Positions 43,987-59,125 of a stretch of 64,000 nt of DNA are shown one piece after another. The stretch comes from Candidatus Magasanikiibacteriota bacterium (GTDB lineage Bacteria; Patescibacteriota; Patescibacteriia; Magasanikbacterales; UBA922). The position numbers were made by a program, and so were the translations under genes. The stretch is from NCBI GenBank assembly GCA_041665025.1, contig JBAYJP010000001.1, forward strand, positions 110,555-174,554, given 5' to 3'. Positions within the stretch are counted from its first letter, which is position 1. Each line of letters begins with the position of its first letter. The notes beneath the pieces were generated by a model. That model did no database searches. It saw nothing but the letters and a program-made list of their open reading frames with translations, and was not told where the DNA came from.

Positions 43987-44424
43987 TTATAGAATAGGCT
44001 GACCTTCGGAATGTTCAAAAAAATCGCGAATTATATTTGCATGATGAAATCCTATATCAATAGGTATATTATCTTTGGAAAAAAATTTACTTTCTATTAC
44101 TTCAATAGTTTCTTGCAAACTGCCTGCAATAATATGTGCAACATAAATCACAGTAACACGCGCTCCCCGAGGATCTTTACCCGTGCTTGTATATACTCCG
44201 TATAATTTATCGATATGAATTTCGACGCCTATTTCCTCATATACTTCTCTCTTTGCGGCCTCAATAGGCTGTTCTTCTTTTATATGACCCCCGGGTAATA
44301 TCCAAAAACCTTTATAGGGCTCGACTCCACGTTTTGTCAATAATATTTCATCTAGTTCATTCAAAATAATGACATCGGCAGAACATGTTGGATATTTTTT
44401 TTCTAATTCAAAAGGTATTTCCAT
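43987..44424 (-). CDS. NUDIX hydrolase
   Basis: Nudix box GGHIKEEQPIEAAKREVYEEIGVEI. Confidence 0.8.
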   Translation of the reverse strand: MEIPFELEKKYPTCSADVIILNELDEILLTKRGVEPYKGFWILPGGHIKEEQPIEAAKREVYEEIGVEIHIDKLYGVYTSTGKDPRGARVTVIYVAHIIAGSLQETIEVIESKFFSKDNIPIDIGFHHANIIRDFFEHSEGQPIL

Positions 44425-44425
44425 A

Positions 44426-45376
44426 TTATTTTTCTTGCACTTTATGTCTGATATCTTTCATCGCAGCATCTAGATGATATGCCAAAGATGGCAAATCATC
44501 AAGAGGAAAATATCTAAAATCATCCATTTCGACATTTTTGACAAAATGATGGCTCTTGATCTTGATAAAATACAAAATCATAGCACGTGCAAAACGTGGA
44601 CTCATACCTTTGTCAGAATATACATGAAATAAATCACCTATTGTACATTCTACGCCGAGCTCTTCGCGGACTTCACGTTTGAGACACTCCTCAATAGACT
44701 CATATACATACATATGACCCCCAGGCAAATCCCATGTATCTTTGAATGGATCCTGTGCTCTATGCGCAAGCAGAATTTCATTTTGTTCATTGAGCACAAT
44801 ACCCATCGCAACCGTATGCATAAAATCATTATCGCGATAATTGTATATTGTTCCAAAATTATCCGTATAAAATGAGCGAGATGCGGGGATCAATTTTCCT
44901 GAATGTTTTTTTTGTATATATCTACGAAGAACTTTGTTATGATTATAACCAAGCCTTTTCCAAAACAAGTAGTGAGGTTTTACCCACTTACATTCTTGGA
45001 CAAATTCAGTAGGAATATCAAAGGTACACCCCGGTTTAGGCCGTGCAGCAAAAATAACTTGAACTCCATAAAAGCGCGGATCTGCAGGGGGCTTCGAATC
45101 TGGATCGCCAAGCACATCTATAAGATACGAAAGTTCAATATCCAACCCTATTTCTTCTTTTACACTGCGTATAGCAGATGCCTGTATGTTATCATCTTCT
45201 ACATACGCGTAGCCGCTTGGCAAAATCCATTTATCTTTCATCGGAGGCACGCCACTTTTTTCAATCAAAATTTCTCCCTGTTCATTTTCAATTATGAGAT
45301 CAACACAAAGCACTGCATATCTCTGCTGTTTCAAAAAAGGAATTTGGGTAATTGTGTCCAAAAACCGAGCTGACAT
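44426..45376 (-). CDS. tandem-domain NUDIX hydrolase (two Nudix boxes)
   Basis: SGYAYVEDDNIQASAIRSVKEEIGL and PGGHMYVYESIEECLKREVREELGVE. The start is set at MSARFLD, which gives a 2-nt gap to the upstream NUDIX gene. Confidence 0.75.
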   Translation of the reverse strand: MSARFLDTITQIPFLKQQRYAVLCVDLIIENEQGEILIEKSGVPPMKDKWILPSGYAYVEDDNIQASAIRSVKEEIGLDIELSYLIDVLGDPDSKPPADPRFYGVQVIFAARPKPGCTFDIPTEFVQECKWVKPHYLFWKRLGYNHNKVLRRYIQKKHSGKLIPASRSFYTDNFGTIYNYRDNDFMHTVAMGIVLNEQNEILLAHRAQDPFKDTWDLPGGHMYVYESIEECLKREVREELGVECTIGDLFHVYSDKGMSPRFARAMILYFIKIKSHHFVKNVEMDDFRYFPLDDLPSLAYHLDAAMKDIRHKVQEK

Positions 45377-45378
45377 AT

Positions 45379-45915
45379 TTAATGTGAAAAATAATAATGT
45401 GTAAGCGCCCACGCAGCCATAGTTTGTCCATCCCAAATTTCATTATTTCGTATCATATTATCCACTTCATCTGGACGACGATAGAGCAATTCAATTTCTT
45501 CCGTATCATCTGTATGTTGCTCATGTTGTTCAGTTACATGCACGAGAAATACGTGACACGTTTCTTTTATCAGACCATTGGCAGTTTCAAATGTTCCCAT
45601 TTTTACAAATTCTTTTGCGGTGTATCCAGTTTCCTCAGAAAGTTCGATTTGTGCAGCCTCAAGCGGAAGTATACCTTTCCTTACCCCGCCACCGGGAAAT
45701 TCAACGCTCTGTTTGTCAACTAGATATCTATGTTGCAGTGTAAGCACTAACCGGCCATCGGGCAATACGGGAACAAGCATGACCATGCCTGGAGTTTCTC
45801 CATAATAATAATCGCCTATTTGCCCATTTGGTTTTTCATACGTATCATGCTTATACGTCCACCAAGGATTTTCGTGCAATATTTCTTCGGTAAGTTTTTT
45901 TAAGTGTTTGGGCAT
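45379..45915 (-). CDS. NUDIX hydrolase (ADP-ribose pyrophosphatase-like)
   Basis: PGGGVRKGILPLEAAQIELSEETGY. Confidence 0.8.
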   Translation of the reverse strand: MPKHLKKLTEEILHENPWWTYKHDTYEKPNGQIGDYYYGETPGMVMLVPVLPDGRLVLTLQHRYLVDKQSVEFPGGGVRKGILPLEAAQIELSEETGYTAKEFVKMGTFETANGLIKETCHVFLVHVTEQHEQHTDDTEEIELLYRRPDEVDNMIRNNEIWDGQTMAAWALTHYYFSH

Positions 45916-45917
45916 AA

Positions 45918-46781
45918 TTAGGTTTCACAATCAAATGATCCTTGTACGACCAATTTTTTCAAAAAATCTACTCTTTTCTTTAACATTAAACGGTAACGTC
46001 TACTTTTGTCTTCCGAGGATCTCAAATCTCCCATATCAAGTATGTGTATTCCTTTAATCTCACCACCTATTTTATTAATACAAAGGTTAAAATCGCCCAT
46101 TGTCTCAACCATATAACCTGTTTTTTCAAAATAGTCTAAAGTTATACATGTAAATTTTCTTAATTGTCTGTTAAATTCCGAATTTACTGATGCTATTCTT
46201 AAAAGATCTTCTACAGTATAACTAAAAAAATTTGACAACTTCCCCTCAACTAGTCTTTGAATCATTGCGGCTCTTGGTTCATTTGAAAATGGATCGTTAA
46301 TTATAAAGTTTGCAGACTCTGGAATTATTTCTGAAATAGATGCATATATCTCTCTTAGCTTTTCATAATTCGTTTGAAAATGCTTTGCTACATCTACCAG
46401 GCTACCCCCTTTTTGTGGTGGAAATAACAACTTCAGCGCCCAAGAAGGACCCTTGTGCTTATTTTTTAGTAGATATACTTTTGCTTCTCCCCCGCCACCT
46501 ATTCTCTCCGAGAATTCATATTTATTAGGGTCAAAGGGTAAATGTTCCACATATTGACGTTTAAAATAACGTTCAACAACTTCTCGACCCAAACCTTCTG
46601 GAGCATATACTAATGCTGCGCGGATTAATGAAACTAAACGGGCATAACGACCTGATGATTCATCATTTAATCTACGCCACAACTCTCCGGTCCCTTTTGG
46701 ACAAGGACCTCTTTCACATGATTCTTCTACTGCGCTAGACAACTTACGCACAAAATGAGGCAATCTATCCCTTTCTATCAT
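45918..46781 (-). CDS. hypothetical protein with protein-kinase-like features
   Basis: Gly-rich loop IGGGGEAKVYLL followed by WALKLL (VAIK-like), later HILDMGDL. The fold assignment is tentative. Confidence 0.35.
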   Translation of the reverse strand: MIERDRLPHFVRKLSSAVEESCERGPCPKGTGELWRRLNDESSGRYARLVSLIRAALVYAPEGLGREVVERYFKRQYVEHLPFDPNKYEFSERIGGGGEAKVYLLKNKHKGPSWALKLLFPPQKGGSLVDVAKHFQTNYEKLREIYASISEIIPESANFIINDPFSNEPRAAMIQRLVEGKLSNFFSYTVEDLLRIASVNSEFNRQLRKFTCITLDYFEKTGYMVETMGDFNLCINKIGGEIKGIHILDMGDLRSSEDKSRRYRLMLKKRVDFLKKLVVQGSFDCET

Positions 46782-46794
46782 ATCCTATTATGGG

Positions 46795-47199
46795 CTAAGC
46801 AAATAAAGTACTAATTTCTTGAACACTCGTGTGCCCCGGCGCATTTACAATAGCATGCATATTACTGCCACCATCGTCATTCCATCGCGGTATAATATGA
46901 ATGTGCAAATGCGGGACTACCTGTCCGCCGGCCTCGCCATGATTCCATCCTACATTATATCCGTCTGGCTGGAGCACATGATCGATTTTTTCTTGCGTGC
47001 GTTTTACTGCAGTCATCAAAAATCCTAAGAGCTCATCATTAAGTTCAAGTAGTGTTTCTGTATGCAATTTGGGGACAACGACCGCATGACCTTTCGCGCG
47101 CGGGTAGATATCCAAAAAAGCAAGCACATGATCATCTTCGTACACGGTGTAGTTTGGAATTTCTTTTTTTATAATTTTGCAAAAAATACAATTGTCCAT
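46795..47199 (-). CDS. HIT (histidine triad) family hydrolase
   Basis: CIFCKI...HLHIHIIPR histidine triad. Confidence 0.85.
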   Translation of the reverse strand: MDNCIFCKIIKKEIPNYTVYEDDHVLAFLDIYPRAKGHAVVVPKLHTETLLELNDELLGFLMTAVKRTQEKIDHVLQPDGYNVGWNHGEAGGQVVPHLHIHIIPRWNDDGGSNMHAIVNAPGHTSVQEISTLFA

Positions 47200-47212: not shown

Positions 47213-47279
47213 GTTCATAGCCAATAGCCAATAATTCATAGTCGTCAACCTATTGGCTATGAACTACTGGCTATGAACT
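47213..47279. repeat. palindromic intergenic repeat, family B (gttcatagccaatag ... ctattggctatgaac)
   Basis: Copies also at 52804-52887 and 58161-58234. Confidence 0.6.
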
Positions 47280-48889
47280 TTCAAATTATACAAGGTATGA
47301 TCTTTGAAAAACATTTTTTCTTCTAAAGAAAGCCCAAACTGTCCCAGATAATCAACAGTGTTTTGATAATGTGCCTCGTCCAACTTCGGAGTGAGATAAT
47401 AGACTGGATTTCCCGCAAAAACGAGTTTACCCAATGCCTGACCCACCCGAGAGTCAAAAAAACGGACAATTACTTGCCTTTCAGGCCATACAAATTTATC
47501 CTCTCTATCAGATACGATTATAGCATGGGTTTGCGTGCTTGCCAAGATGTCTTTTTTGACTAATTCTACATATTTTAACTGTCCTCGCACAGCCAAAATT
47601 CCATCAACTCCTCTAAACGCTGCATTATAAGACAATAAAGCCATACCAGACAAGACAATCACTCCAAGCAGCCAAGCCCTTTTTTTCTGGGCTATACCCT
47701 GCCAAACACTCCCCACAAACGGCAACATAAGGATAAAAATAGGCAACCAATAGCGTGTGTAGGCAACACCTATTGTCTTCATGCTATAGAGCGTGTCTGC
47801 ACTACTTCCATAGTAAATAAAAAGAAATGATGAAACGAAAATACAAACTATTGCGTATATTTTTTGTGCACGAGTCAAAATTCCTTTTTTCCAATTAAAT
47901 ATAAAAAATGCAAATCCAAACAGTGCGGGAACTGTGTACCACCATTGTATATTGATAAAATAAAACCAAACACTTCGCACAATCATGCCAACACTAACAC
48001 CAAAAGGAAATAAAAATGAATACCAATGTGAAACTCCAATAGAACGAGAGGTAATATATGCACCAATTGGATTTCCATACACCTGTATGTTAAACCACGC
48101 GTATAACCCGATAAAAATTAAACTCGTTATAATCCACGTGAGCAATCGTGAAAATGAAATTTCTTTTCTGTAGGCTATAATGACAATACACATTGCAAGA
48201 CCAATCCATACAATTTCATTTGGCCGCATCAAAATACCAAGCATAAAAACCGACATTCCCAAAATATCGTTTACCATCATCGAAATCCGTTCAAACCTGC
48301 CTGCCGGCAAGGCAGGTCTGTTAAATCTGTGTTCTATTATCATCTTCAAGGGATTCACTAACAAAAACCAAATTCCTATCAACAACAAACTCACAGACGG
48401 CACATTATGAAACATACTTCGTGCCGTGTAATAAAAAAGCACTGGCTGAAAAAATAATAATAGCGAACTGTAGAACGCAACTTCTTTATTGAATATCTTT
48501 TTTATAATTCCATAAAACGCCCACACACCCAAAATTGCAAGAACGGATGTCAAAAACACCATTGCATTCATACCAACTATTTTTGCAATAAGTCCATACA
48601 TCATGGGCATTCCCAAAAATCCAACAGGTAAAATTTCTTTTCCTCCATTTTCTTCTACATAGGTACTGCGCGGATGAATAAATTCATTCAATTCTCCATA
48701 ATCTTGTGGCAAGGAATACGAAAGTTTATTTTCTTTCGCCACTGTGCCAGTAAATACATAATTTGCTGTTTCATCGGGCGAATTAAAAATTCCCGGCACT
48801 GAAAAATTTAAATAATTATATAAAACAAAAAATACTATTGAAAAAATAAGTAGGATGATTTTATGTTTGTTAAGAAAAAAATTATTCAT
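47264..48889 (-). CDS. polytopic membrane protein, GT-C-like (ArnT/PMT-type glycosyltransferase candidate)
   Basis: More than 10 TM helices. It carries the in-frame palindrome cctgcctgccggcaaggcagg (48296-48320) encoding PALPAG. Confidence 0.5.
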   Translation of the reverse strand: MNNFFLNKHKIILLIFSIVFFVLYNYLNFSVPGIFNSPDETANYVFTGTVAKENKLSYSLPQDYGELNEFIHPRSTYVEENGGKEILPVGFLGMPMMYGLIAKIVGMNAMVFLTSVLAILGVWAFYGIIKKIFNKEVAFYSSLLLFFQPVLFYYTARSMFHNVPSVSLLLIGIWFLLVNPLKMIIEHRFNRPALPAGRFERISMMVNDILGMSVFMLGILMRPNEIVWIGLAMCIVIIAYRKEISFSRLLTWIITSLIFIGLYAWFNIQVYGNPIGAYITSRSIGVSHWYSFLFPFGVSVGMIVRSVWFYFINIQWWYTVPALFGFAFFIFNWKKGILTRAQKIYAIVCIFVSSFLFIYYGSSADTLYSMKTIGVAYTRYWLPIFILMLPFVGSVWQGIAQKKRAWLLGVIVLSGMALLSYNAAFRGVDGILAVRGQLKYVELVKKDILASTQTHAIIVSDREDKFVWPERQVIVRFFDSRVGQALGKLVFAGNPVYYLTPKLDEAHYQNTVDYLGQFGLSLEEKMFFKDHTLYNLKVHSQ

Positions 48890-48957
48890 AATGCTTGACC
48901 GAAACTATATAAAATGATAGAACATGATAAACCTAAGGCCGTGGAAAGGAGGACACC

Positions 48958-49662
48958 ATGGCCAAGCGCGTGAGACGCGCTCGTAGTGTGACCGGTGTCC
49001 CCACCCGGCCACAAGACCCGCTTCACGAGTGGCTCGGTATCACCGGGCTACTCATGAAACACGAGGTGACCGCGAACACCGTTACGGTTGTTCGTGGAAT
49101 CCTCGTTCTGCCGGTGATCATACTGGCAGGATTCGGCTTCAGTGGGGCGGCGTTTATTCTCCACCTTGTGAGCTGGTGGGGCGACGCCGTGGATGGTTCG
49201 GTCGCGCGCGAACGGCAGCGATGCGGCTACGTCGATAATCGGGATTTAGGGGAGTATCTTGACCCGATGGTCGACAAGGCTGCATGGGTGGCAGAGGCAA
49301 TGTTTTTACCTTTCGCCGCCCAAGCTGAACTCCGTCCGACGTGGGTGGTGGTAATCGCTATCGCGGCGATGTGTGTGCTCGTCCTCATCGAGGTTGCACT
49401 CGGCATCGTCCGGTGGCAAGATTACCACGCTAACACCAAGCAGACTACAGATGCGCCCAAACTCAACCTTGGGGCGCGCTGGTCAGGCAAGGTGAAGATG
49501 GTGCTCGAGGTCGCAGGACTCTCGACACTAATCCTTACCTCGTCCGACGAGGCTACTTGGTGCGTCCACGTGTGGGCGTGGGCGCTCGCGGCTGCTATGC
49601 CACTCGCCTCGCTCAGCCTGCTCCAAAAGATCTGGAGCAGGAAGGCTATAGTGGCAAACTAA
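48958..49662 (+). CDS. CDP-alcohol phosphatidyltransferase family protein on GC-rich island C
   Basis: Catalytic motif DAVDGSVARERQRCGYVDNRDLGEYLDPMVD (D-G-x2-A-R...G...D...D). AAGGAGG SD 5 nt upstream. About 62% GC versus about 32% in the flanks. Confidence 0.7.
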   Translation: MAKRVRRARSVTGVPTRPQDPLHEWLGITGLLMKHEVTANTVTVVRGILVLPVIILAGFGFSGAAFILHLVSWWGDAVDGSVARERQRCGYVDNRDLGEYLDPMVDKAAWVAEAMFLPFAAQAELRPTWVVVIAIAAMCVLVLIEVALGIVRWQDYHANTKQTTDAPKLNLGARWSGKVKMVLEVAGLSTLILTSSDEATWCVHVWAWALAAAMPLASLSLLQKIWSRKAIVAN

Positions 49663-49795
49663 GGAGCTACGCCCCGCGGGATTGGAGGATCCCCGGGGCG
49701 ATTGCGTTTTATAACACAGATTGCACAGAATAAAAAGGAAACACGGATTACTATTTCGGTGTATTCCTTGTCATTCCGTGTAATCCGTGTTCTAT

Positions 49796-50440
49796 CTATA
49801 CACCATGTCTAAACAAACTCACAAGCGCAAACCCGACTGACAACCCCAAAATTCCACTTGCAAATCTCAAAAATACTTCATTATCAAATACGAGTGCGAT
49901 AAGGATGGCGCACACTGCTAAAACCTGCAAAAACATTTTTATCTTTCCCCACAAATTTGCCATACGTACGGTCTTGAACTTCACATGAGCAACATATGCA
50001 CTGGCAATAAATATTATTTCAATGCCAAGTACAGCGATTCCAAGCCAAAAATTTAAATACTTAAAAACTAACAACAGCACCATGGAACCAATCAAAAATT
50101 TGTCCGCGAGTGGATCAATAAGCATGCCAAATTTGGTTATTTTGTTTTGAGTGCGTGCGAGAGATCCATCAAGCGCGTCAGTAAATGCAACTACTAAAAA
50201 TAAACCAACCCCTGTCTTGTAGTATCCATAAAGTATGGTGAAAAATACTACAGGGGTTGCGATAATGCGAAATATACTTATTTTGTTTGGCGTAATAGCA
50301 GATGGAAGCAATTTTAAAAATGTGCGGGCCAAAAAATAATCATGGGGATGAACTTCCTCTGCTTTGAGATAGGTGAACAAATCGTGGTTACGTTCCTTGA
50401 ACCGTTTGATAAAATTCATATTTTTCGCTAAACTATACAT
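49796..50440 (-). CDS. CDP-alcohol phosphatidyltransferase family protein (native AT-rich copy)
   Basis: AFTDALDGSLARTQNKITKFGMLIDPLADK motif and multiple TMs. Confidence 0.75.
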   Translation of the reverse strand: MYSLAKNMNFIKRFKERNHDLFTYLKAEEVHPHDYFLARTFLKLLPSAITPNKISIFRIIATPVVFFTILYGYYKTGVGLFLVVAFTDALDGSLARTQNKITKFGMLIDPLADKFLIGSMVLLLVFKYLNFWLGIAVLGIEIIFIASAYVAHVKFKTVRMANLWGKIKMFLQVLAVCAILIALVFDNEVFLRFASGILGLSVGFALVSLFRHGV

Positions 50441-50551
50441 ATCTTACCTAAGATTGGGGAAAAAATCAATAACGAATCAACATAAAGTTGCACTTTGTGA
50501 GGGGCTAAAGTATACATAATTAGTCTAGACGCATGAGTGGTACGCCCCCTT

Positions 50552-50595
50552 GAAACAGGGTTTTGGCCCGCCGCGGCGGGCCAAAACCCTGTTTC
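50552..50595. repeat. perfect 44-bp palindrome gaaacagggttttggcccgccg|cggcgggccaaaaccctgtttc
   Basis: Exact 22+22 inverted repeat with a GC-rich core, in the divergent intergenic region between 49796..50440(-) and the membrane protein (+). Confidence 0.7.
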
Positions 50596-50667
50596 ATAAA
50601 TCCGAGCCTAAAGATAGTTCCATATCACCATGCATACACGAGGATTTATTCCACGGACTACAAAAAT

Positions 50668-52803
50668 ATGAATATACAGAAAAATAAAATTATTTCTTTA
50701 ACCATTTTCGGAATTATTTTGTGCATACTCAATATTTTTGTAGTGCACAGTGTTGTGATAGGCATAATAGGAATAGCATTGTACGCAACACAGCTTAGTA
50801 AATGGATAGGACATCTTGCTTTTACGAAATACGAAAGATTTGGAAAAAAATTATTTGGTTTTGTCATTCTCACGGGAATCATAATGACACTCAATGTACT
50901 TGTATATTACCCATACAAATTAACCACACTCACCACCATTATAATCCTATTAATCCCCTGTTTTCTCTTTTTTATAAAATCAAATCAGGAGAAGAGCACA
51001 AATGACAGTCCATGGGTCATGGAACGTTCACACGCCATGCAAACACTATTGTTTGTGGCTATAGATATAGCTCTTATTTATATTCTCACACAAAACAGCA
51101 CAACTGATGTTCTGCCATCTCCATGGATGAATATCAAACCCTGGTTTTTTATTTTATACGCAATCGCGACCGTAATATTACTCCATACCGTATCTGTCTC
51201 GCGACATGTTGGTAAAAGTATTGCACTTATTTCACTACATTTGTTTGTTACGTATAGCGTCGCATCGATTATCTATACACTTGGTTATGGATTTGATGGT
51301 TTTATCCATCGTGCCACAGAAACCTGGATTTTAAACAATGGGTTTATTACACCAAAACAACCATTTTATATTGGACAATACGGGCTCGTAGTGTGGCTTT
51401 CGCAGATCACACATATTTCAATTAAGATACTCGATATATATCTCGTGCCAGTCTTAACATCTCTCACACTTCCATTTTTTGTATATCACGCATTGCGATA
51501 CACGTGGAATATAGCGCAAGGCATTGCATTAAATCTTACATGGCTTTTGCCCTTTTTATTTTTCTTATCTTTTTATTTTACCACGCCACACAATTTAGCC
51601 TTACTATTTTTTATACTCGCCGTATTTGCAACAATTTCGTATGCAAAAGAAAAAATGCCATTCATTGTCCCTGGTGTTCTCTGTATAATGGCATCAATAA
51701 CACACCCACTTATTGGAGCACCGCTCTGTGTTTTTGTCTTTATTGCATTTGTTATACGAAAAATAAAAAACAAGTCTATTTCAGTTGTACTATCTATTTT
51801 TAATGGGATATCTATTGCGCTTGTACCGATTATTTTATTTACTCTGTTTCTTTTTATACATCATAATCCCCTTCCGAGCATTCAAAATCCTTTTACATTT
51901 GAACAAGTCCAGAGATTTACAGAATTAGTTGCACGTCCACATTGGTACATTGCACATGCGCCCATTATATTTGAATTACTTTACCTATGGCATGACGCTA
52001 TAATTCCGCTGGTAGTTATTATCGGCCTTGTTGGATTTTTTATAAAAAAAGAAAAGACATACATAGATTATCTCCTTATTTCTTCCTCACTTGGTTCTTT
52101 TATTGGCGCATGGTTATTGCGTACATGGGTTGTACTGCCCAATTTACTTGAAGAAGAACAAGCATCCTACCCTTTGCGCCTTTTGAGCATGGGGCTTCTT
52201 TTCCTCATGCCATTTTCAATGTATGGGCTATACGCCTTAGGCACGTGGTTTATGGAGAAAATAAAAAAATCCCGCAGCGAGCGGGATCCCGCTGTAGCGG
52301 GACAGCACATAGTAAAAGCATTATATATTCTTGGAGCAAGCGCACTTTTGATGGTTTCATTTTATTTTTCATATCCACAGCGCAATCCAAAAGTTTGGTT
52401 TCCCGGATTTAATGTTTCTCAAGCTGACTTTAGTGCCGTGGAGTGGATTCGCAATCAACATACTGATTATAATTATGTCGTGCTTTCAAATCCTATTACT
52501 GCCATGGCTGCTCTCACCAATTATAATTTTGTAAAACATTTCCAAACGCAAGAGCAAGGCGAATTATTTTATTATTCAATCCCAAGCGGTGGATATTTGT
52601 ACCGCATGTATTTGAACATGCTGTATGAAGTTCCCAAAGAACAATTTGTAGACGAAGTTAAAAAAACAACAGGGGTTGACACGGTTTATTTTGTGGTAAA
52701 TTCATATTGGGGAAGTTTCAAAAAAATTGTGGAAGAGCACAAAAAAACTGCCAAATCATGGCAGTCGATTGATGACGGAAAAGTGATGATATTTACTTAC
52801 TAA
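50668..52803 (+). CDS. large polytopic membrane protein (GT-C/O-antigen polymerase-like candidate)
   Basis: The start is placed at MNIQKNK because the upstream extension covers the palindrome. About 15 TMs, then a C-terminal soluble domain. Confidence 0.5.
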   Translation: MNIQKNKIISLTIFGIILCILNIFVVHSVVIGIIGIALYATQLSKWIGHLAFTKYERFGKKLFGFVILTGIIMTLNVLVYYPYKLTTLTTIIILLIPCFLFFIKSNQEKSTNDSPWVMERSHAMQTLLFVAIDIALIYILTQNSTTDVLPSPWMNIKPWFFILYAIATVILLHTVSVSRHVGKSIALISLHLFVTYSVASIIYTLGYGFDGFIHRATETWILNNGFITPKQPFYIGQYGLVVWLSQITHISIKILDIYLVPVLTSLTLPFFVYHALRYTWNIAQGIALNLTWLLPFLFFLSFYFTTPHNLALLFFILAVFATISYAKEKMPFIVPGVLCIMASITHPLIGAPLCVFVFIAFVIRKIKNKSISVVLSIFNGISIALVPIILFTLFLFIHHNPLPSIQNPFTFEQVQRFTELVARPHWYIAHAPIIFELLYLWHDAIIPLVVIIGLVGFFIKKEKTYIDYLLISSSLGSFIGAWLLRTWVVLPNLLEEEQASYPLRLLSMGLLFLMPFSMYGLYALGTWFMEKIKKSRSERDPAVAGQHIVKALYILGASALLMVSFYFSYPQRNPKVWFPGFNVSQADFSAVEWIRNQHTDYNYVVLSNPITAMAALTNYNFVKHFQTQEQGELFYYSIPSGGYLYRMYLNMLYEVPKEQFVDEVKKTTGVDTVYFVVNSYWGSFKKIVEEHKKTAKSWQSIDDGKVMIFTY

Positions 52804-52887
52804 GCCAATAGCCAATAGTTCGTAGCCAATAAATATCGCCCAAAACTCTATTGGCAATTGGCTATTGGCTCTGAACTATTGGCTATA
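52804..52887. repeat. family B palindromic intergenic element
   Basis: aagccaatagccaatagttcgtagccaat...ctattggcaattggctattggctctgaactattggctat. Confidence 0.6.
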
Positions 52888-54105
52888 AAGACTTACAAGC
52901 TTTTCAATATATTTCTCCTGCGTCAGCCCAGACAACATCTGGGTTGTTTTATTACTCATGATATGCAAATCTTGCGGATGTTCTATAGCCCATTTCATTT
53001 TCTCTGCAAGAGACGCCACATTCCCCGCTTCAAATGTAATACCACTCTCCCCTTCTTCAATAAGTTCGGCAATACCCTCGATGCGGCTGGCAAGAACCGG
53101 AATATGAAAAAATAAACTTTCAAAAATCACGGTCGGAGAATTTTCATAACATAACGATGGCACAACGGTTACATTCATGCGAGAAAATAATTCTGGCAAT
53201 TTATCCCGTTCCACACGCCCATGTACCGTAATATGCACGTTACCTTTTGTTTTTTCAATGACTTCATCTAACTGTGAACCATTTCCCACAATATGCAAAT
53301 GAATTTGTTTTTGCATGTCCAACTGAATATTTTTAAATGCTTCTATAAGCAAAAAAATACCTTTATGCGTCTCTATTTGCCCAAGATACAAAAAATTAAA
53401 CAGATCATTTCCCTGTTTCCTGTTCCCTGTTCCCTGTTCCCTGCTCTCCAATGTAAAGTCAAACGTCAATGGATTTCTCACCACTACTGTCTTTGACAAC
53501 GGAAAAAATCCTCGCTTGGTATAAAAGTCTAACAAAAATTGCGAAGGAGAAATGACAACCTGTGGCGAACCCATGAGTTTTTTCATAACCCACGTATATA
53601 TTTTTGTAGGAAACCCAGTATAACGCCATGAATGTTCCCTGTCTTTCAAAATCATCGCACTTGGTTCTACCAATTGCACGTCATGCACGGTATGGATATG
53701 ACGCAAACCAAGTTTGCGAATGACAGATGGAATAAAAAATGATAGGCCAATAAGATTATGCGTATGCACAATATCTGGTTTTTCTTTTTCCAAAATATTT
53801 TTTACCCAGCTGGCCGTAGAAAAATTAAAAATATCGCATACATGCCATATAAAACGTACCATACCGCTATGTTTGTGCGCGTCAGTATAAAAATACACAT
53901 TCGGCGGCCTGCGACGATAAATGGTCGTGTGTTCGTGACGTTCACTAAAATCCCCTCGCGGGGCACTGGTAATAATGACCACATCGTGACCTTGGGCAAC
54001 CAAACCCTGCGCAGACTTAACTACAACCTGCTCAGCTCCGCCACGGTGATAAGGAGGATAGATGTTGTTGATGATGCACACTTTCATAGCTCTGTAATAA
54101 TACAA
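52876..54105 (-). CDS. glycosyltransferase family 4 (GT-B)
   Basis: MKVCIINNIYPPYHRGGAEQ and a C-terminal E-x7-E-like EGIAELIEEGESG. It contains an in-frame family H repeat (EQGTGNRKQGND). Confidence 0.8.
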   Translation of the reverse strand: MYYYRAMKVCIINNIYPPYHRGGAEQVVVKSAQGLVAQGHDVVIITSAPRGDFSERHEHTTIYRRRPPNVYFYTDAHKHSGMVRFIWHVCDIFNFSTASWVKNILEKEKPDIVHTHNLIGLSFFIPSVIRKLGLRHIHTVHDVQLVEPSAMILKDREHSWRYTGFPTKIYTWVMKKLMGSPQVVISPSQFLLDFYTKRGFFPLSKTVVVRNPLTFDFTLESREQGTGNRKQGNDLFNFLYLGQIETHKGIFLLIEAFKNIQLDMQKQIHLHIVGNGSQLDEVIEKTKGNVHITVHGRVERDKLPELFSRMNVTVVPSLCYENSPTVIFESLFFHIPVLASRIEGIAELIEEGESGITFEAGNVASLAEKMKWAIEHPQDLHIMSNKTTQMLSGLTQEKYIEKLVSLYSQ

Positions 54106-54124
54106 AAATTCCTAATTCACCCAT

Positions 54125-54240
54125 GCATAATTCAAATCTCAAACGTCAAAAGTCAAAACTGCAACTAAAAATTTAAAAGTTTATATATTTGAGTTTTCAT
54201 TTTGAGTTTTGAGATTTGACTTTTGAATTTTATTTGCACC
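54125..54240. repeat. family D palindromic element (overlaps the 3' end of the methyltransferase gene)
   Basis: ctcaaacgtcaaaagtcaaaactgcaactaaaaatttaaaagtttatatatttgagttttcattttgagttttgagatttgacttttga. Its right half encodes the methyltransferase C-terminus KIQKSNLKTQNENSNI. Confidence 0.6.
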
Positions 54241-55146
54241 TATCGTCCAATGCCATCCTAGATGCTTAAACCCTGGAATCTTGAATAACATTTCATCAAC
54301 CGCCACGATTCCTTTTTCCAACCATAATGGCAAAACGATTCTCTTTTTAAGTTTGAATGCGCGAAAGGTAAATTCCAAAATATATTGTATCCATCCTGCA
54401 AACAACCACATAGGACGTACCGAAACTTTTTCCCATTTTCCTTCATGCAATACATAATTTATTTTTCTATAAGAAAATCCTGTCATTTCAGCGTCTGCGT
54501 GAGATACATTGTGTTCATCAGTGTGAGTCAGTCGTGACATGATGGGACGAATTATTTTCAGAGGCAAAAAATATGTTTTATTTGGCTCAACCCAAATACA
54601 CAGTTTGCCACCAGATTTCAAAACACGCGCAAATTCTTTCAAAGCTTCGCCATAATCTGAAAAATGATGCCAGACGGCGACCATATACAGTGAATCAAAC
54701 GTATTGTCTGCAAACGGCAAGTGCATACCATCTGCCGCAACATAGGTAGCATTTGTAGAATGTAATTTTGTAGAAAGTCGTTCCAGTGTTTTGGAAGAAA
54801 TATCAGACAACACCATTTTGTAATCAGGTAGGAAATGTTGCGCGTCATGTCCGCTCCCTGCGCCAATTTCCAAAATCAGACTGCCGGGTCGCAATTCTTT
54901 TATTGCACTGTGCAATCGAGTGTGATAATACACATTTCTCCATGCATTGAGCTGGTGCACGTTGTTGGCATCATCTTCCAAATGATCGTGATACTCTGCT
55001 TCTTCCTTTGCAAGTTCACCTAGTTCAGTTGGTAAGGCAACAATGACATTATTTTTCTTTTCATATACTTTTCCACATGAACAAATATAGCTTTGTCCGG
55101 GGATAAGCTCTTTCATTTCATTGTGACAGTCGGTGCAGATAAACAT
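54181..55146 (-). CDS. class I SAM-dependent methyltransferase with N-terminal zinc-ribbon
   Basis: CTDCHNEM...CSCGKVYE ribbon and motif I LEIGAGSGHDAQHF. Flanked on both sides by family D elements. Confidence 0.75.
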   Translation of the reverse strand: MFICTDCHNEMKELIPGQSYICSCGKVYEKKNNVIVALPTELGELAKEEAEYHDHLEDDANNVHQLNAWRNVYYHTRLHSAIKELRPGSLILEIGAGSGHDAQHFLPDYKMVLSDISSKTLERLSTKLHSTNATYVAADGMHLPFADNTFDSLYMVAVWHHFSDYGEALKEFARVLKSGGKLCIWVEPNKTYFLPLKIIRPIMSRLTHTDEHNVSHADAEMTGFSYRKINYVLHEGKWEKVSVRPMWLFAGWIQYILEFTFRAFKLKKRIVLPLWLEKGIVAVDEMLFKIPGFKHLGWHWTIGANKIQKSNLKTQNENSNI

Positions 55147-55149
55147 ACT

Positions 55150-55238
55150 TTAAATCTCAAAATTCAAATATCAAAAGTCAAAACTACAACTAAAAACTTA
55201 AAAGTTTATAGTTTTGAGATTTGACTTTTGAGTTTTCA
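55150..55238. repeat. family D palindromic element (immediately upstream of the methyltransferase start)
   Basis: aaatctcaaaattcaaatatcaaaagtcaaaactacaactaaaaacttaaaagtttatagttttgagatttgacttttgagttttcaa. Confidence 0.6.
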
Positions 55239-55636
55239 ACGCTCAGTATACCACATTTTAGAATAAAAAAACTACTTTTCTATAGTAGTCATTCGTGCTG
55301 ATATGGAGTGTGTCGCGCGCCCGGTGACGGCGGCGGAACGCCTAGCGACATCCAGAATTGGATGCCACCGTCACCGGGACACGCGCGGATCAGCGATCGA
55401 AGGCCTTGCCGCTTCCGGTTCTGCTCGCGATGTACGCGCATCGGCACTGCCGTGCCTCCTCGCGACTTGCGTGCGAACCGCTGCAGAAGCGACACGCCTT
55501 GACCCGCCGATTCTTGCTCTTGCTGGGACGAGGCATCCCAACCTCCTTCCTCGCGCGCCTCCGTGGCGCGCACAATGGTTCACATCATACACAAAAAAAG
55601 TCCAGATGTCAATCTGGACTGTAAAAAAATACAAAA

Positions 55637-55782
55637 CCCCGTTCGCACAAGTCACGTGGTCGCGAAGCGACTTTACGTGACTGTCACGTGTCCGCCCAAA
55701 GCGGATTTACGTGACATAACCTCCCCCACACTTCTACCAAATATCTGATAAAAGTATGGGCGAGTGCGAACGGGGTCGTTGC
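55637..55782. promoter_or_regulatory. putative operator/iteron region: 12-bp inverted repeat (ccccgttcgcac / gtgcgaacgggg) enclosing repeated ACGTG-containing sites
   Basis: gtcacgtggtcgcgaagcgactttacgtgactgtcacgtgtccgcccaaagcggatttacgtgaca has TTTACGTGAC x2 and GTCACGTG x2. It lies inside GC-rich island D, downstream of the 55829..56104 gene. Confidence 0.3.
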
Positions 55783-55828
55783 ATCGCCCTCTTGTTTTCG
55801 GTGGTGACCGAGCTTTCATGATCCCCCC

Positions 55829-56104
55829 TCACCCGCCCAAAAAATACCTCGGGCTGTATACCGGCTTGCGGCATGCGGCGCACTTGCCGGCGTTCTTGTC
55901 CTCGTCGTGGACGAGAACTGCGCCGCATCCGGTGCACCGGATGACCTTGGCGATGTTCGCCGGCGCCCTTGAGCAGTTCGCGTACTTGTTGACGTGGACG
56001 TGTACCTTCTGCCCCTTCCCCTTCTTCTTGTTCTTCACCTTTCCCCCACTGTTCTTCCAGCCCTTCTGTCGTTTCTTCTCACCCGTCGGGTTGATCTGCG
56101 CCAT
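55829..56104 (-). CDS. small Lys-rich protein with C-terminal CxxC...CxxC zinc-ribbon, on GC-rich island D
   Basis: GAGGAGG SD 6 nt upstream of the ATG. 91 aa: basic N-terminus, then IRCTGCG...KCAACRK. Confidence 0.45.
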   Translation of the reverse strand: MAQINPTGEKKRQKGWKNSGGKVKNKKKGKGQKVHVHVNKYANCSRAPANIAKVIRCTGCGAVLVHDEDKNAGKCAACRKPVYSPRYFLGG

Positions 56105-56301
56105 CGATCCTCCTCGTCAGCCGCCCAATATGTCGGGCGGGAAAATGGTTGCAACTATCCTCTCAAACTCTCTCTCTCTTGTCAACATCGTTTGCACATT
56201 TCATCAACAACTATCACTAAACATGGGTTGATAAATAAAGGTTAGTAAGGTAATATACGTGGGCGTTGGGTTAAGAAACTGGAAACCAGAATATATATCC
56301 G

Positions 56302-57774: not shown

Positions 57775-57853
57775 AACATTAGTTCAAGCTGAAAGAATAG
57801 ATTTAAACTGAAAAAAATTTCTGTTTAAATCAATTTTTAATCAGTATAAATCA

Positions 57854-58162
57854 ATGCTTATGTTCAATAAGTTAAAACAATTCAAAGACCTCCGTAGTCA
57901 GGCAAAAACATTACAAAATACCTTGTCTCAAGAGAGTATTACGGTTCGCGCAGCTGGAGATCAGGTTGTACTTACAATGGATGGCAACCTCACGTTGACT
58001 GGTCTTGCAATTGACGATGCACTTCTGGCACCCGACAAAAAAGACAAACTTCAAAATGCAATCAAAGAAGCTCATGCAGATGCACTCAAAAAAATGCAAC
58101 GCATCATGGCAATGAAGATGAAAGAAATGGGGGGTTTACCTAACATTCCAGGACTAAACTAG
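57854..58162 (+). CDS. ybaB: nucleoid-associated protein YbaB/EbfC
   Basis: About 100 aa, ...GDQVVLTMDGNLTLTGLAIDDALLAPDKKDKLQNAIKEA pattern. Located immediately upstream of recR. Confidence 0.85.
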   Translation: MLMFNKLKQFKDLRSQAKTLQNTLSQESITVRAAGDQVVLTMDGNLTLTGLAIDDALLAPDKKDKLQNAIKEAHADALKKMQRIMAMKMKEMGGLPNIPGLN

Positions 58163-58234
58163 TTCGTAGTTCATAGCCAATAGCCAATAGTTTACAATCG
58201 CCAATTTATTGGCTGTGAACTATTGGCTATGAAC
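58161..58234. repeat. family B palindromic intergenic element
   Basis: agttcgtagttcatagccaatagccaatag...ttattggctgtgaactattggctatgaac. Confidence 0.6.
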
Positions 58235-58238
58235 TTCT

Positions 58239-59096: not shown

Positions 59097-59125
59097 AACC
59101 CGCGTCTTTGCGGGTTTTTATTTTT
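59096..59125 (+). terminator. rho-independent terminator aaaacccgcgtctttgcgggtttttattttttt
   Basis: Perfect GC stem plus a long T-run. Confidence 0.65.

What the first reader, a model, noticed from the sequence alone, without database searches (positions are those of the whole stretch)
48958..50440. Two convergent CDP-alcohol phosphatidyltransferases, one native (AT-rich) and one on a foreign GC-rich island
Both ORFs carry the D-G-x2-A-R…G…D…D catalytic motif. The plus-strand copy (48958..49662) is about 62% GC with a strong AAGGAGG SD and GC hairpin terminator. The minus-strand copy (49796..50440) has host-like composition. A xenologous lipid head-group transferase landing next to the resident one, within a locus full of envelope glycosyltransferases, may indicate acquisition of a new membrane lipid or polymer head group. 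A donor lineage (for example a host organism) is one possible source.
Basis: partly seen in the sequence, partly recalled or inferred. Interest (0 to 1): 0.55.

Follow-up and report, generated by a model that had tools for sequence, protein, structure and literature searches.

The report
GC-rich, hyper-folded second lipid-transferase gene
Next to its ordinary lipid head-group transferase gene, this AT-rich Magasanikbacteria (CPR) genome carries a second, optional copy that is not a recent foreign arrival: related genomes hold it at the same spot, where it stays unusually GC-rich and its mRNA is predicted to fold far more tightly than chance allows.

Summary
Window 48958-49662(+) and 49796-50440(-) are convergent CDP-alcohol phosphotransferase genes (PF01066). 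The first is 59.6% GC (GC3 0.69), against 38.8% for the window.

The interpretation (a xenologue from another lineage or host) is not supported. Among about 15 billion proteins, every relative that could be placed sits in the same slot of other Magasanikbacteria: GT-C glycosyltransferase | 2nd gene | native gene | 700-aa membrane protein. In 11 of 12 loci the second gene is 9-21 GC points above its surroundings. These genes are only 25-70% identical and their synonymous sites are saturated. Their GC tracks host GC (r=0.87, offset +0.16).

The gene is accessory: 5 of 50 species loci carry it, and one close relative has an empty site. It occurs as deep types A and B, swapped between close relatives downstream of a shared AT-rich promoter.

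Unexpectedly, the mRNA is predicted to be hyper-structured. The window copy gives z=-8.3 against synonymous-codon shuffles, slot genes range from -2.4 to -9.9, and neighbours and controls sit near 0. It is the most structured block of the 64 kb, and its base pairs are partly conserved with compensatory changes.

Best reading: a long-resident accessory paralogue whose GC excess is actively maintained, probably by selection on RNA folding. The purpose of the folding is unknown.

The parts
48895..48923 (+). Promoter-like element of the slot: TTGACC, then 17 nt containing TGA, then TAGAAC. It is AT-rich and host-like in composition.
   Evidence: Read from the sequence. The same element (TTGACT-N14-TGATATAGT and TTGACT...TGATAAAAC) lies at the left edge of the exchangeable cassette in L053 and L056, inside the 78%-identical flank. 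The consensus scan did not list it, because its -10 hexamer lacks the final T. The assignment is therefore inferred from conservation.
48946..48952 (+). Shine-Dalgarno sequence AAGGAGG, 5 nt upstream of the ATG.
   Evidence: Sequence. The GC-rich block begins just upstream, at about 48935.
48958..49662 (+). Second (accessory) CDP-alcohol phosphotransferase, type A, 234 aa. GC 0.596, GC3 0.69. Its mRNA is predicted to be hyper-structured.
   Evidence: PF01066, 51.8 bits. Catalytic motif invariant in the orthologues. AF2 model pLDDT 91.8; best PDB folds are PgsA1, PgsA and AF2299. dN/dS about 0.1-0.2. MFE -360.3 against -290.9+-8.4 kcal/mol for 60 synonymous shuffles.
48935..49705 (.). The GC-rich, structure-rich block: ribosome-binding site, CDS and terminator. 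This is the exchangeable cassette.
   Evidence: 100-nt GC profile. It is the most structured ~750-nt block of the 64-kb window, with mean dMFE -14 against a window mean of -1.5+-5. Cassette limits come from the L009/L010 and L053/L056 comparisons.
49670..49710 (+). GC hairpin (CGCCCCGCGG...CCCCGGGGCG) followed by a T-tract. Terminator-like 3' end of the second gene.
   Evidence: I5. L010 has a similar GACCCGCGGGAT...ATCCCGCGGGTC hairpin at the same place.
49738..49792 (-). Hairpin (GAACACGGATTAC / GTAATCCGTGTTC) followed by a T-run on the minus strand. Terminator-like 3' end of the native gene.
   Evidence: Sequence. Windows 49675-49824 and 49701-49850 have z -4.7 to -6.5.
49796..50440 (-). 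Native, conserved PgsA-like CDP-alcohol phosphotransferase. The likely true start is 50419, giving 207 aa. GC 0.374.
   Evidence: PF01066, 97.9 bits. 460 homologues, mostly 207 aa, in Magasanikbacteria and other Patescibacteria. Best PDB sequence match is S. aureus PgsA 7drj, E 1.1e-7. TIGR00560 pgsA scores 88 bits, below its cut-off of 109. mRNA folding z = +0.5.
47264..48889 (-). Left flank of the slot: a GT-C (PMT_2-like) membrane glycosyltransferase.
   Evidence: PF13231, 27.6 bits. NF047440 family, weak hit. Syntenic in L001, L002, L033 and others.
50668..52803 (+). Right neighbour: a conserved ~700-aa polytopic membrane protein of unknown family, transcribed divergently from the native gene.
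   Evidence: No Pfam, NCBIfam or PDB match. Present next to the native gene in nearly all related loci.

Best explanation
What it is. The plus-strand gene is an accessory, lineage-specific paralogue of the CDP-alcohol phosphotransferase family. It is a 6-helix membrane enzyme with every catalytic residue intact. It has lived for a long time in one fixed slot of a Magasanikbacteria envelope-glycoconjugate locus. The slot lies downstream of a host-type promoter and is convergent with the conserved PgsA-like gene.

How it varies. The slot is empty in most species. Where it is filled, it holds one of several deeply divergent versions (types A, B and others). These are occasionally swapped or lost, much like the alternative cassettes of surface-polysaccharide loci.

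Why it is GC-rich. The high GC is not a relic of a foreign origin. It is an equilibrium that is actively maintained in every lineage, about 16 points above whatever the host's GC is. It comes with an mRNA that is predicted to fold far more stably than its codon usage and amino-acid sequence require.

Inferred mechanism. Selection for a densely base-paired transcript chooses G/C at synonymous sites, and to some extent GC-rich amino acids. What the folding achieves is unknown. Possibilities include throttled or conditional translation, or resistance to RNases, to Rho, or to antisense pairing with read-through from the convergent partner.

Inferred enzymatic role. The enzyme transfers a substituted phosphate from a CDP-activated donor to an alcohol. 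This would give a strain-variable head group or phospho-linker on a membrane-anchored envelope glycoconjugate.

Shown versus inferred. Shown: family membership, synteny, accessory and cassette behaviour, persistent GC offset, saturated dS, purifying selection, excess predicted folding, and partial covariation. Inferred: that folding is the selected trait, what the folding is for, and the substrate.
For: Family and fold:
- PF01066 hit.
- Motif invariant across 29 subfamily members.
- AF2 model pLDDT 91.8, with PgsA1, PgsA and AF2299 as best PDB folds.

Endemic and syntenic:
- Only 3 word-index hits, and 5 hits at E<=1e-30 among 1.84e9 representatives.
- All placed relatives lie in the same slot.

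Accessory and cassette-like:
- 5 of 50 GTDB loci carry it.
- Empty site in L009 against L010.
- Types are incongruent with the native gene: window/L033 are 83% (native) against 30% (second gene), and L053/L056 are 86% against 30%.
- The A/B swap boundaries fall just after a shared promoter and just after the terminators.

Long residence:
- Within each type, identity of the second gene co-varies with identity of the native gene, r about 0.8.
- pS is 0.66-0.84 and identity at 4-fold sites is mostly near the random expectation. The window/L001 pair keeps some excess identity (0.42 against 0.26 expected). pN is 0.19-0.40.

Maintained GC:
- Excess of 9-21 points in 11 of 12 loci.
- Host GC against gene GC gives r=0.87, with an offset of +0.164.

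Folding:
- Dinucleotide shuffles give z=-10.4 for the window and -5.1 for L033.
- Synonymous-codon shuffles give z=-8.3 for the window with N=60. The other slot genes range from -2.4 to -9.9, including the AT-rich L015.
- The sense strand exceeds the antisense strand in most genes.
- Native neighbours give +0.9 to -3.0, and 12 control CDP-OH genes mostly give about 0.
- It is the top-ranked block in the 64-kb scan.
- Base pairs are partly conserved. Pairs with compensatory changes number 59 (type A) and 71 (type B), against 29-39 and 33-53 in slid controls, and 0 of 500 shuffles reach the observed values.
Against: - All folding evidence is thermodynamic prediction. There are no expression or probing data.
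- The RNAalifold consensus for type A is weak: -78 kcal/mol with a positive covariation term. Many pairs of one orthologue's structure are broken in the others. What is conserved may be 'foldedness' rather than one fold.
- The covariation tests use only 5 sequences each, and the tested structure was derived from one of them.
- The fold excess is small in some members: L002 z=-2.4, L085 -3.3, L033 -3.5.
- No consistent sequestration of the ribosome-binding site or start codon was seen, so no specific regulatory mechanism is indicated.
- The A/B incongruence shows that some horizontal exchange within the clade did occur.
- GC-biased gene conversion at an exchange hot spot could raise GC without any selection on RNA.
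- Other GC-rich, structured islets with variable small ORFs exist in the same genome (55251-56200 and 61276-61800). These hint at a broader GC-rich accessory gene pool whose source is unidentified.
- The substrate and product of the enzyme are unknown. No NCBIfam equivalog cut-off is reached.
Confidence: 0.6

Rival explanations
1. This is a recently acquired xenologue on a foreign GC-rich island, from a GC-rich donor in another lineage (for example the host of this episymbiont), and it has not yet ameliorated.
For: - Strong, sharp compositional anomaly covering all three codon positions.
- Self-contained unit of ribosome-binding site, gene and terminator.
- Presence/absence polymorphism between relatives whose flanks are about 80% identical.
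- Patchy distribution.
Against: - No donor-like homologue was found in 5.8e9 clusters, in 1.84e9 representatives, or on viral contigs.
- All nearest relatives are Magasanikbacteria genes in the same slot.
- Orthologues are 25-70% identical with saturated synonymous sites, yet all remain GC-rich.
- Gene GC tracks host GC.
- Within each type, divergence tracks host divergence.
- No mobility genes, tRNA or att repeats flank the gene.
- A foreign origin does not explain the excess RNA folding relative to synonymous shuffles.
Confidence: 0.08
2. The slot is a recombination hot spot. Cassettes are exchanged repeatedly among Magasanikbacteria, and GC-biased gene conversion (or repeated re-import from a GC-richer accessory gene pool) keeps the cassette GC-rich. 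Under this view the RNA folding is a by-product or is irrelevant.
For: - Types A and B are distributed incongruently with the flanks, with sharp exchange boundaries.
- The gene is accessory.
- gBGC is documented to raise GC3 in recombining bacterial genes (Lassalle et al. 2015, PMC4450053, found).
- Other GC-rich islets holding different small ORFs occupy a second slot upstream of dnaB in the window, L002 and L033.
Against: - gBGC does not predict folding far beyond synonymous-codon shuffles. Those shuffles keep GC3 and codon usage.
- It does not predict compensatory pair changes.
- The AT-rich tandem copy in L015 has no GC excess but is still over-folded, z=-5.9.
- The flanks immediately outside the cassette show no GC rise.
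- Within each type the genes co-diverge with their hosts.
- The only polymorphism data (3 sites, all S->W) are too sparse to decide.
Confidence: 0.2
3. The block is primarily, or additionally, a functional structured RNA. That could be a bifunctional mRNA, or a cis-acting element acting on the convergent native gene. The protein-coding capacity would be secondary.
For: - Largest folding excess in the window.
- Sense-strand bias.
- Partial covariation in two independent alignments.
Against: - The protein is clearly under purifying selection, with intact catalytic residues and a confident fold.
- No Rfam family matches at either threshold.
- There is no strong consensus structure.
- The helices are largely lineage-specific.
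Confidence: 0.12
4. Artefact: a chimeric assembly or a contaminating read set created the GC-rich insert.
For: The window comes from a metagenome-assembled genome, as shown by the names attached to P0001 and P0004.
Against: The same gene order and the same GC jump appear in more than 10 independent assemblies from different projects and sources. The junctions fall in conserved intergenic sequence.
Confidence: 0.01

Closest known systems
PgsA, phosphatidylglycerophosphate synthase (S. aureus, PDB 7DRJ/7DRK; TIGR00560)
   Same: - Same Pfam family and fold.
- Same catalytic D-x2-D-G-x2-A-R...G-x3-D-x3-D motif.
- Similar C-terminal GK-x-K motif.
- Best-scoring NCBIfam model for both window proteins.
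- The native copy matches 7drj by sequence.
   Different: - Neither protein reaches the equivalog cut-off: 42 and 88 bits against 109.
- The second copy has a 13-residue spacer where the native copy has 8.
- The second copy has an extra conserved N-terminal segment and conserved E145, R152 and D155.
- Type B versions replace the motif Arg with Thr, Met or Lys.
- The substrate is unknown.
Phosphatidylinositol-phosphate synthases (M. tuberculosis PgsA1, PDB 6H53/6H5A/6H59; Renibacterium PIPS 5D92) and AF2299 (4O6M)
   Same: - Best structural matches of the AF2 model, with TM 0.5-0.6.
- Inference from general knowledge: mycobacterial PgsA1 makes the lipid anchor that GT4 and GT-C glycosyltransferases then extend. 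This resembles the GT4 plus GT-C (PMT_2-like) context here.
   Different: - Sequence identity is only 13-18%.
- NF045883 and NF040950 score far below their cut-offs.
- No inositol-phosphate synthase gene or other pathway evidence was looked for or found.
Horizontally acquired genomic islands that undergo amelioration (compositional-anomaly paradigm)
   Same: - Sharp GC anomaly.
- Accessory distribution.
- Self-contained unit of ribosome-binding site, gene and terminator.
   Different: - No donor and no mobility machinery were found.
- The anomaly persists through saturated synonymous divergence and tracks host GC. This is the opposite of amelioration.
Alternative-cassette surface-polysaccharide loci (O-antigen or capsule serotype loci)
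   Same: - Deeply divergent alternative genes sit between conserved flanks in an envelope glycoconjugate cluster.
- They are exchanged among close relatives.
- Their GC is atypical.
   Different: - Here it is a single gene rather than a multi-gene block.
- From general knowledge, those loci are typically lower in GC than the genome. Here the gene is much higher.
- No comparable mRNA hyper-folding is described for them, to my knowledge.
Coding regions with selected RNA structure (for example genomes of ssRNA phages, or cis-regulatory mRNA thermometers)
   Same: Predicted folding lies far beyond composition-matched nulls, and synonymous sites are used for pairing.
   Different: - This is a chromosomal bacterial gene for a membrane enzyme.
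- The structure spans the whole CDS rather than a 5' element.
- No known family matches.

Membership tests
CDP-alcohol phosphotransferase family (Pfam PF01066), second gene 48958-49662 | Profile match above the curated gathering score | tested here: met
   51.8 bits against a cut-off of 22, E 1.5e-13, covering profile positions 3-150 of 152.
CDP-alcohol phosphotransferase family (Pfam PF01066), second gene 48958-49662 | Catalytic signature D-x2-D-G-x2-A-R...G-x3-D-x3-D | tested here: met
   D76, D79, G80, A83, R84, G98, D102 and D106 are all present. D76, D79, G80, A83, G98, D102 and D106 are invariant in 29 subfamily members. The spacer is 13 residues, against 8 in the native copy.
CDP-alcohol phosphotransferase family (Pfam PF01066), second gene 48958-49662 | All-helical polytopic membrane fold like the solved members | tested here: met
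   AF2 pLDDT 91.8, pTM 0.87. Top 16 Foldseek PDB hits are all CDP-OH transferases (6h5a, 7drj, 4o6n, 5d92), with prob 1.00, TM 0.5-0.6 and E about 4e-3.
CDP-alcohol phosphotransferase family (Pfam PF01066), second gene 48958-49662 | Enzymatic transfer from a CDP-alcohol donor to an acceptor alcohol | not testable with these tools
   Needs biochemistry or lipidomics.
PgsA equivalog (TIGR00560 / NF008090) | Score at or above the curated equivalog cut-off | tested here: not met
   Second gene 42.1 bits and native gene 88.1 bits, against a cut-off of 109.1. For NF008090 the native gene scores 48 against 304.
PIP synthase, archaetidylinositol-P synthase, PssA and DIPPS equivalogs | Score at or above the curated cut-off | tested here: not met
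   All hits score 18-42 bits, against cut-offs of 107-580.
Recently acquired genomic island (HGT from another lineage) | Atypical composition with sharp borders | tested here: met
   GC 0.596 against 0.385 for the rest of the window. Borders lie at about 48935 and 49705.
Recently acquired genomic island (HGT from another lineage) | Nearest homologues lie in a different lineage (the donor) | tested here: not met
   The nearest homologues are all Magasanikbacteria genes in the same slot. No outside relatives were found.
Recently acquired genomic island (HGT from another lineage) | Mobility signatures: integrase or transposase, tRNA target, flanking repeats | tested here: not met
   The only tRNA lies at 9752-9823. 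There are no flanking direct or inverted repeats beyond the terminator hairpins. The neighbours are envelope genes.
Recently acquired genomic island (HGT from another lineage) | Recency: the anomaly decays with divergence (amelioration) | tested here: not met
   dS is saturated between orthologues while GC3 stays at 0.5-0.8. The GC offset is constant across hosts, r=0.87.
Known structured RNA families (Rfam 15) | Covariance-model match | tested here: not met
   No hit at the gathering threshold in the window. At E<=1 in 48800-62000 only hairpin-like miRNA models appear, far below their thresholds.

The most novel reading that the evidence does not exclude
A single protein-coding gene family in AT-rich CPR bacteria is held far above genomic GC because its transcript is under selection to be an almost fully base-paired RNA. 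That would make it a gene-specific, RNA-structure-driven compositional equilibrium, with partial covariation, persisting through complete synonymous turnover. The fold would be a previously undescribed post-transcriptional device. It might throttle or gate translation of a potentially harmful membrane enzyme. It might protect the mRNA from RNases, Rho, or antisense pairing in a convergent gene pair. The RNA might even have a second function. The other GC-rich, over-folded islets in the same genome may be further examples of the same class.
Probability: 0.4. Interest if true: 0.75.

Novelty: new variant of a known kind. Interest (0 to 1): 0.62.

Why it matters
1. A caution for genome scans. A sharp GC anomaly is routinely read as recent horizontal transfer. 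Here the anomaly survives saturated synonymous divergence and follows host GC. Composition alone would therefore mislead.

2. A testable case for what sets base composition. If the GC excess is driven by selection on mRNA folding, this is an unusually clean natural example of RNA-level selection overriding genome-wide mutational bias in one gene. It would allow selection on structure to be compared with mutation bias and with biased gene conversion.

3. A marker of envelope variability in CPR bacteria. These bacteria are thought to depend on scavenged lipids. An optional, type-variable CDP-alcohol transferase inside a conserved glycoconjugate locus points to strain-specific remodelling of a membrane-anchored surface molecule. 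That may be relevant to host attachment or phage recognition.

Tried and rejected
- Donor search. I ran the word-indexed search, the exhaustive HMMER scan, a metagenome-contig scan and two viral-contig scans. No outside or GC-rich donor was found. The metagenome scan returned only the same four slot types, plus distant generic CDP-OH genes from GC-rich contigs, which I used as controls.
- PDB sequence search with the type-A profile: no hit. Only fold comparison worked.
- Rfam at the gathering and E-value thresholds: nothing relevant.
- First related-loci run with the 29-sequence alignment failed because it had no conserved stretch.
- First large folding script timed out.
- RNAalifold consensus for type A is weak, so I do not claim one conserved fold.
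- Accessibility of the ribosome-binding site and start codon shows no consistent pattern across 12 orthologues. A simple translational switch is therefore not supported.
- Pairing by codon position and by third-base identity does not separate second genes from native genes.
- Polarised polymorphisms among L059, L060 and L014 give only 3 sites in the gene, which is uninformative for gBGC.
- No repeats are shared among the GC-rich islets.
- An exact look-up of NCBI's 202-aa model found no record.
- Four literature searches found no description of this gene family's composition or folding.
- Ideas considered and dropped:
  - Integron-like cassette: no integrase and only a single slot.
  - Overlapping antisense gene: the antisense ORFs are not conserved between loci.
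  - Origin- or terminus-related element: the cumulative skew shows no turn.
Full report
**1.

- The window contains two convergent ORFs: 48958..49662(+) of 234 aa and 49796..50440(-) of 214 aa.
- Both match Pfam PF01066 (CDP-alcohol phosphatidyltransferase) well above the gathering score: 51.8 and 97.9 bits against a cut-off of 22.
- Both carry the catalytic signature.
  - The plus-strand copy reads D76xxD79G80xxA83R84-x13-G98xxxD102xxxD106.
  - The minus-strand copy has the same signature with an 8-residue spacer.
- Composition:
  - The plus-strand CDS has GC 0.596, or 0.64/0.46/0.69 by codon position.
  - The minus-strand copy has GC 0.374, and the window as a whole 0.388.
  - The GC block has sharp edges at about 48935 and 49705.
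- AAGGAGG lies 5 nt before the ATG. A GC hairpin with a T-tract follows the stop codon.
- The native gene has its own hairpin terminator at 49738-49792 on the minus strand.
- The two proteins are only 30% identical over 106 residues, so they are not recent duplicates.
- The organism is a Candidatus Magasanikbacteria (Patescibacteria/CPR) genome, judging from the names of the 100%-identical database entries.

**2. The surrounding locus is an envelope-glycoconjugate cluster**

In order, the genes are:
- GT2 x2, a SIS/PGI-like gene, an RmlD-like gene and a sugar-nucleotide dehydratase.
- Three NUDIX genes, an unknown gene and a HIT gene.
- A PMT_2-like GT-C glycosyltransferase.
- The second transferase, then the native transferase.
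- A ~700-aa membrane protein with no family match.
- A GT4/GT1 glycosyltransferase and a methyltransferase.
- dnaB, recR, a DUF192 gene and a Glycos_transf_4 (MraY/WecA-like) gene.

**3. Where the relatives are**

The native protein has 460 hits. Most are 207 aa long and come from Magasanikbacteria and other Patescibacteria.

The GC-rich protein is very different:
- It has only three hits among 5.8 billion clusters: itself, P0002 (69% identical) and P0003 (59%).
- An exhaustive HMMER scan of 1.84 billion representatives with the 3-sequence profile found 5 proteins at E<=1e-30, 54 at E<=1e-10 and 220 at E<=1e-3.
- Every top hit for which DNA or a record could be obtained lies in the same slot. 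These are P0002, P0003, P0124, P0127, P0130/HAT03870.1, P0131, P0134, P0136 and P0138.
- That slot is HIT(-) | GT-C-like membrane protein(-) | second CDP-OH(+) | native CDP-OH(-) | ~700-aa membrane protein(+).
- A metagenome-contig scan and two viral-contig scans added no closer or foreign relatives.

That expectation is not met.

**4. The GC excess is a property of the gene family in this slot, not of one insertion**

| Locus | Second gene GC | Rest of locus GC |
|---|---|---|
| window | 0.596 | 0.385 |
| L001 | 0.536 | 0.322 |
| L002/L010 | 0.544 | 0.359 |
| L053 | 0.530 | 0.379 |
| L056 | 0.466 | 0.355 |
| L033 | 0.590 (GC3 0.79) | 0.384 |
| L014 | 0.363 | 0.252 |
| L013 | 0.457 | 0.370 (whole locus) |
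| L085 | 0.577 | 0.432 |
| L087 | 0.592 | 0.440 |
| L088 | 0.611 | 0.454 |

- The one exception is L015. There the gene lies in tandem rather than convergent orientation, and its GC is 0.285 against 0.261.
- Across the ten convergent loci with measured flanks, gene GC follows host GC with r=0.87 and a mean offset of +0.164.
- These genes are only 25-70% identical to one another.
- Between orthologues, synonymous sites are saturated for both the second and the native gene.
  - pS is 0.66-0.84.
  - Identity at four-fold sites is mostly near the random expectation. The window/L001 pair keeps some excess identity, 0.42 against 0.26 expected.
- Non-synonymous divergence is much lower (pN 0.19-0.40). 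Where it can be computed, dN/dS is about 0.1-0.2.

A composition that survives complete synonymous turnover, and that shifts in parallel with the host's, is an actively maintained equilibrium. It is not a remnant of a foreign origin awaiting amelioration.

**5. The gene is nevertheless accessory and cassette-like**

- Only 5 of 50 GTDB species loci that contain the native gene carry a second gene within 5 kb.
- L009 and L010 are about 80% identical in their flanks. L009 has 46 nt between the native stop codon and the GT-C start, where L010 has about 957 nt (ribosome-binding site, gene and GC hairpin).
- The slot genes fall into deep types:
  - Type A: window, L001, L002, L053, L014.
  - Type B: L033, L056, L013, L085, L015.
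  - Others: L087, L088.
- The types are distributed incongruently with the native gene.
  - Window and L033 share 83% native identity but 30% second-gene identity.
  - L053 and L056 share 86% but 30%.
- L053 and L056 are 78% identical in nucleotides right up to a shared AT-rich promoter (TTGACT-N14-TGATATAGT) and again just after the terminators. In between they cannot be aligned.
- The window has the same promoter-like element at 48895-48923. The generic scan did not flag it.
- Within each type, second-gene identity rises with native-gene identity, r about 0.8. The pairs are not independent, so this is indicative only.

This fits long vertical residence, punctuated by loss and by occasional swaps between types.

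**6. The unexpected feature: predicted RNA hyper-folding**

- The transcript region 48930-49710 folds at -400.8 kcal/mol, against -316+-8 for dinucleotide shuffles (z=-10.4). L033's copy gives z=-5.1.
- Synonymous-codon shuffles keep the protein sequence and codon usage. Against them:
  - The window CDS gives -360.3 against -290.9+-8.4, with a best shuffle of -305.4 (N=60, z=-8.3).
  - The native gene gives z=+0.5.
- The other slot genes:

| Locus | z against synonymous shuffles |
|---|---|
| L001 | -6.8 (N=12; -18.3 in the N=16 run) |
| L053 | -5.2 |
| L002 | -2.4 |
| L056 | -9.9 |
| L033 | -3.5 |
| L014 | -9.4 |
| L013 | -4.0 |
| L015 | -5.9 |
| L085 | -3.3 |
| L087 | -9.0 |
| L088 | -6.3 |

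- The excess is usually larger on the sense strand than on the antisense strand. That points to RNA, where G-U pairs count, rather than to DNA palindromes.
- Controls:
  - Native neighbours give +0.9 to -3.0.
  - Twelve CDP-OH genes from GC-rich or other contigs give +3.0 to -4.3, mostly near 0.
  - Three more distant subfamily members outside the slot give -0.1 to -2.0, with smaller GC offsets.
- In a scan of the whole window (150-nt windows, both strands), 48901-49750 is the most over-folded ~750-nt block. Its mean excess is -14 kcal/mol per window, against a window-wide mean of -1.5+-5.
- The excess is spread along the whole CDS.
- Mapping one orthologue's MFE structure onto alignments of five orthologues gives:

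| Measure | Type A | Type B |
|---|---|---|
| Cells paired | 62.8% | 64.0% |
| Cells paired, partners slid | 36-43% | 39-43% |
| Pairs with compensatory double changes | 59 | 71 |
| Same, slid controls | 29-39 | 33-53 |
| Same, shuffles | 40.5+-4.5 | 49.5+-5.1 |
| Shuffles reaching the observed value | 0 of 500 | 0 of 500 |

- Caveats:
  - The tested structure comes from a member of each alignment.
  - There are only five sequences per alignment.
  - The RNAalifold consensus is weak.
- I therefore claim partial conservation of pairing plus a general, lineage-wide excess of folding. I do not claim a single conserved fold.
- No Rfam family matches.
- There is no consistent masking of the ribosome-binding site or start codon.

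**7. The protein**

- The AlphaFold model, built from a 28-sequence alignment, is confident: pLDDT 91.8, pTM 0.87.
- Its best PDB neighbours are M. tuberculosis PgsA1, S. aureus PgsA, AF2299 and Renibacterium PIPS, with TM 0.5-0.6.
- D76, D79, G80, A83, G98, D102, D106, K107, R152, G177, K180, S220 and K224 are invariant in 29 subfamily members.
- Type B replaces the motif Arg with Thr, Met or Lys.
- Neither window protein reaches any NCBIfam equivalog cut-off, so the substrate cannot be assigned.
- By analogy (inference), a CDP-alcohol transferase placed beside GT4 and GT-C enzymes suggests synthesis or decoration of a lipid-anchored glycoconjugate. The optional, type-variable second enzyme would then add a strain-specific head group or phospho-linker.

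**8. Weighing the explanations**

- A recent foreign island is contradicted by sections 3 and 4.
- Assembly artefact is excluded, because the arrangement recurs in more than ten independent assemblies.
- Recombination-driven GC enrichment (gBGC; Lassalle et al. 2015, PMC4450053) could contribute, given the cassette swaps. It does not predict three things:
  - Folding beyond synonymous shuffles that already preserve GC3.
  - Compensatory pair changes.
  - The over-folded but AT-rich L015 copy.
- A purely non-coding RNA is contradicted by purifying selection on an intact enzyme.
- The best-supported account is a long-resident accessory paralogue whose transcript is under selection to be heavily base-paired, with the GC excess as the footprint of that selection.
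- What the folding achieves remains an inference. It might be a translation throttle, or resistance to RNases, to Rho, or to antisense pairing in a convergent pair.

**9. Verdict**

- The 'xenologue from a donor lineage' reading is not supported.
- What is there is a new subfamily of a known enzyme family with an unusual and, as far as I could find, undescribed combination of features. It has a fixed slot, alternative deep types, a persistent gene-specific GC offset, and an over-folded mRNA.
- All structural evidence is computational. Interest is moderate to high, pending transcript and probing data.

Noticed in passing
window 55251-56200: A second GC-rich islet (GC 0.56) lies just upstream of dnaB. 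It is the second most over-folded block of the window, with mean dMFE about -10 to -11 on the + strand.

It holds a 91-aa Cys-rich ORF at 55829-56104(-) with a GAGGAGG ribosome-binding site, and other GC-type ORFs. There is no Pfam hit above cut-off and no Rfam hit.

The same GT4-dnaB gap is GC-rich in two relatives but carries different small ORFs: L002 at 9600-10200 (106-aa ORF 9806-10126) and L033 at about 460-1050.
   Followed up: partly
window 61276-61800: A third GC-rich islet (GC 0.56) lies between a Glycos_transf_4 gene and a DUF559 gene. It holds a 91-aa ORF at 61387-61662(+) that looks like a small membrane protein and has no Pfam hit. The adjacent windows at 61701-61850 are strongly over-folded, z -8.8.
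   Followed up: partly
window 50551-50596: A perfect 46-nt palindrome (TGAAACAGGGTTTTGGCCCGCCG | CGGCGGGCCAAAACCCTGTTTCA) sits in the divergent promoter region between the native transferase and the 700-aa membrane protein gene. Folding z is -5.8/-7.2. The corresponding gap in L033 is only about 55 nt, so the palindrome looks like a window-specific insertion.
   Followed up: partly
L089 451-1101: A more distant member of the same subfamily (P0141) lies immediately upstream of dnaB. That is the position occupied by the second GC-rich islet in the window. Its GC offset is only +0.03 and its folding z is -1.5.
   Followed up: partly
L015 5977-6654: This is the only slot gene in tandem (same-strand) orientation with the native gene. 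It shows almost no GC excess (0.285 against 0.261) but still an over-folded mRNA, z=-5.9. Folding and GC excess can therefore be uncoupled.
   Followed up: partly
window 48958-49053: The public annotation of this gene (P0001, 202 aa) starts at Met33. The upstream 32 codons are conserved in P0002 and P0003 and are preceded by AAGGAGG. The 234-aa model is therefore more likely.
   Followed up: yes
L033 5683-6441; L056 5001-5762; P0127, P0130, P0131, P0133: Type-B slot enzymes have DGLVAT, DGLVAM or DGLVAK in place of the canonical DGxxAR. They lack the motif arginine while keeping all the aspartates. This may mean a different donor or acceptor.
   Followed up: no
window 43987-47199: A run of three NUDIX genes, one unknown 287-aa gene and a HIT-family gene sits directly upstream of the slot. 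The run is conserved in the related loci. It suggests nucleotide-sugar or CDP-alcohol turnover linked to the cluster.
   Followed up: no
L049 380-1258: A weak hit to the second-gene profile (44 bits) on the minus strand has GC 0.569, against 0.461 for the locus, and lies next to a truncated native gene. It may be a further divergent slot type.
   Followed up: no
window 9752-9823: The only tRNA in the 64 kb is tRNA-Gln(CTG). It is also a small GC peak.
   Followed up: no
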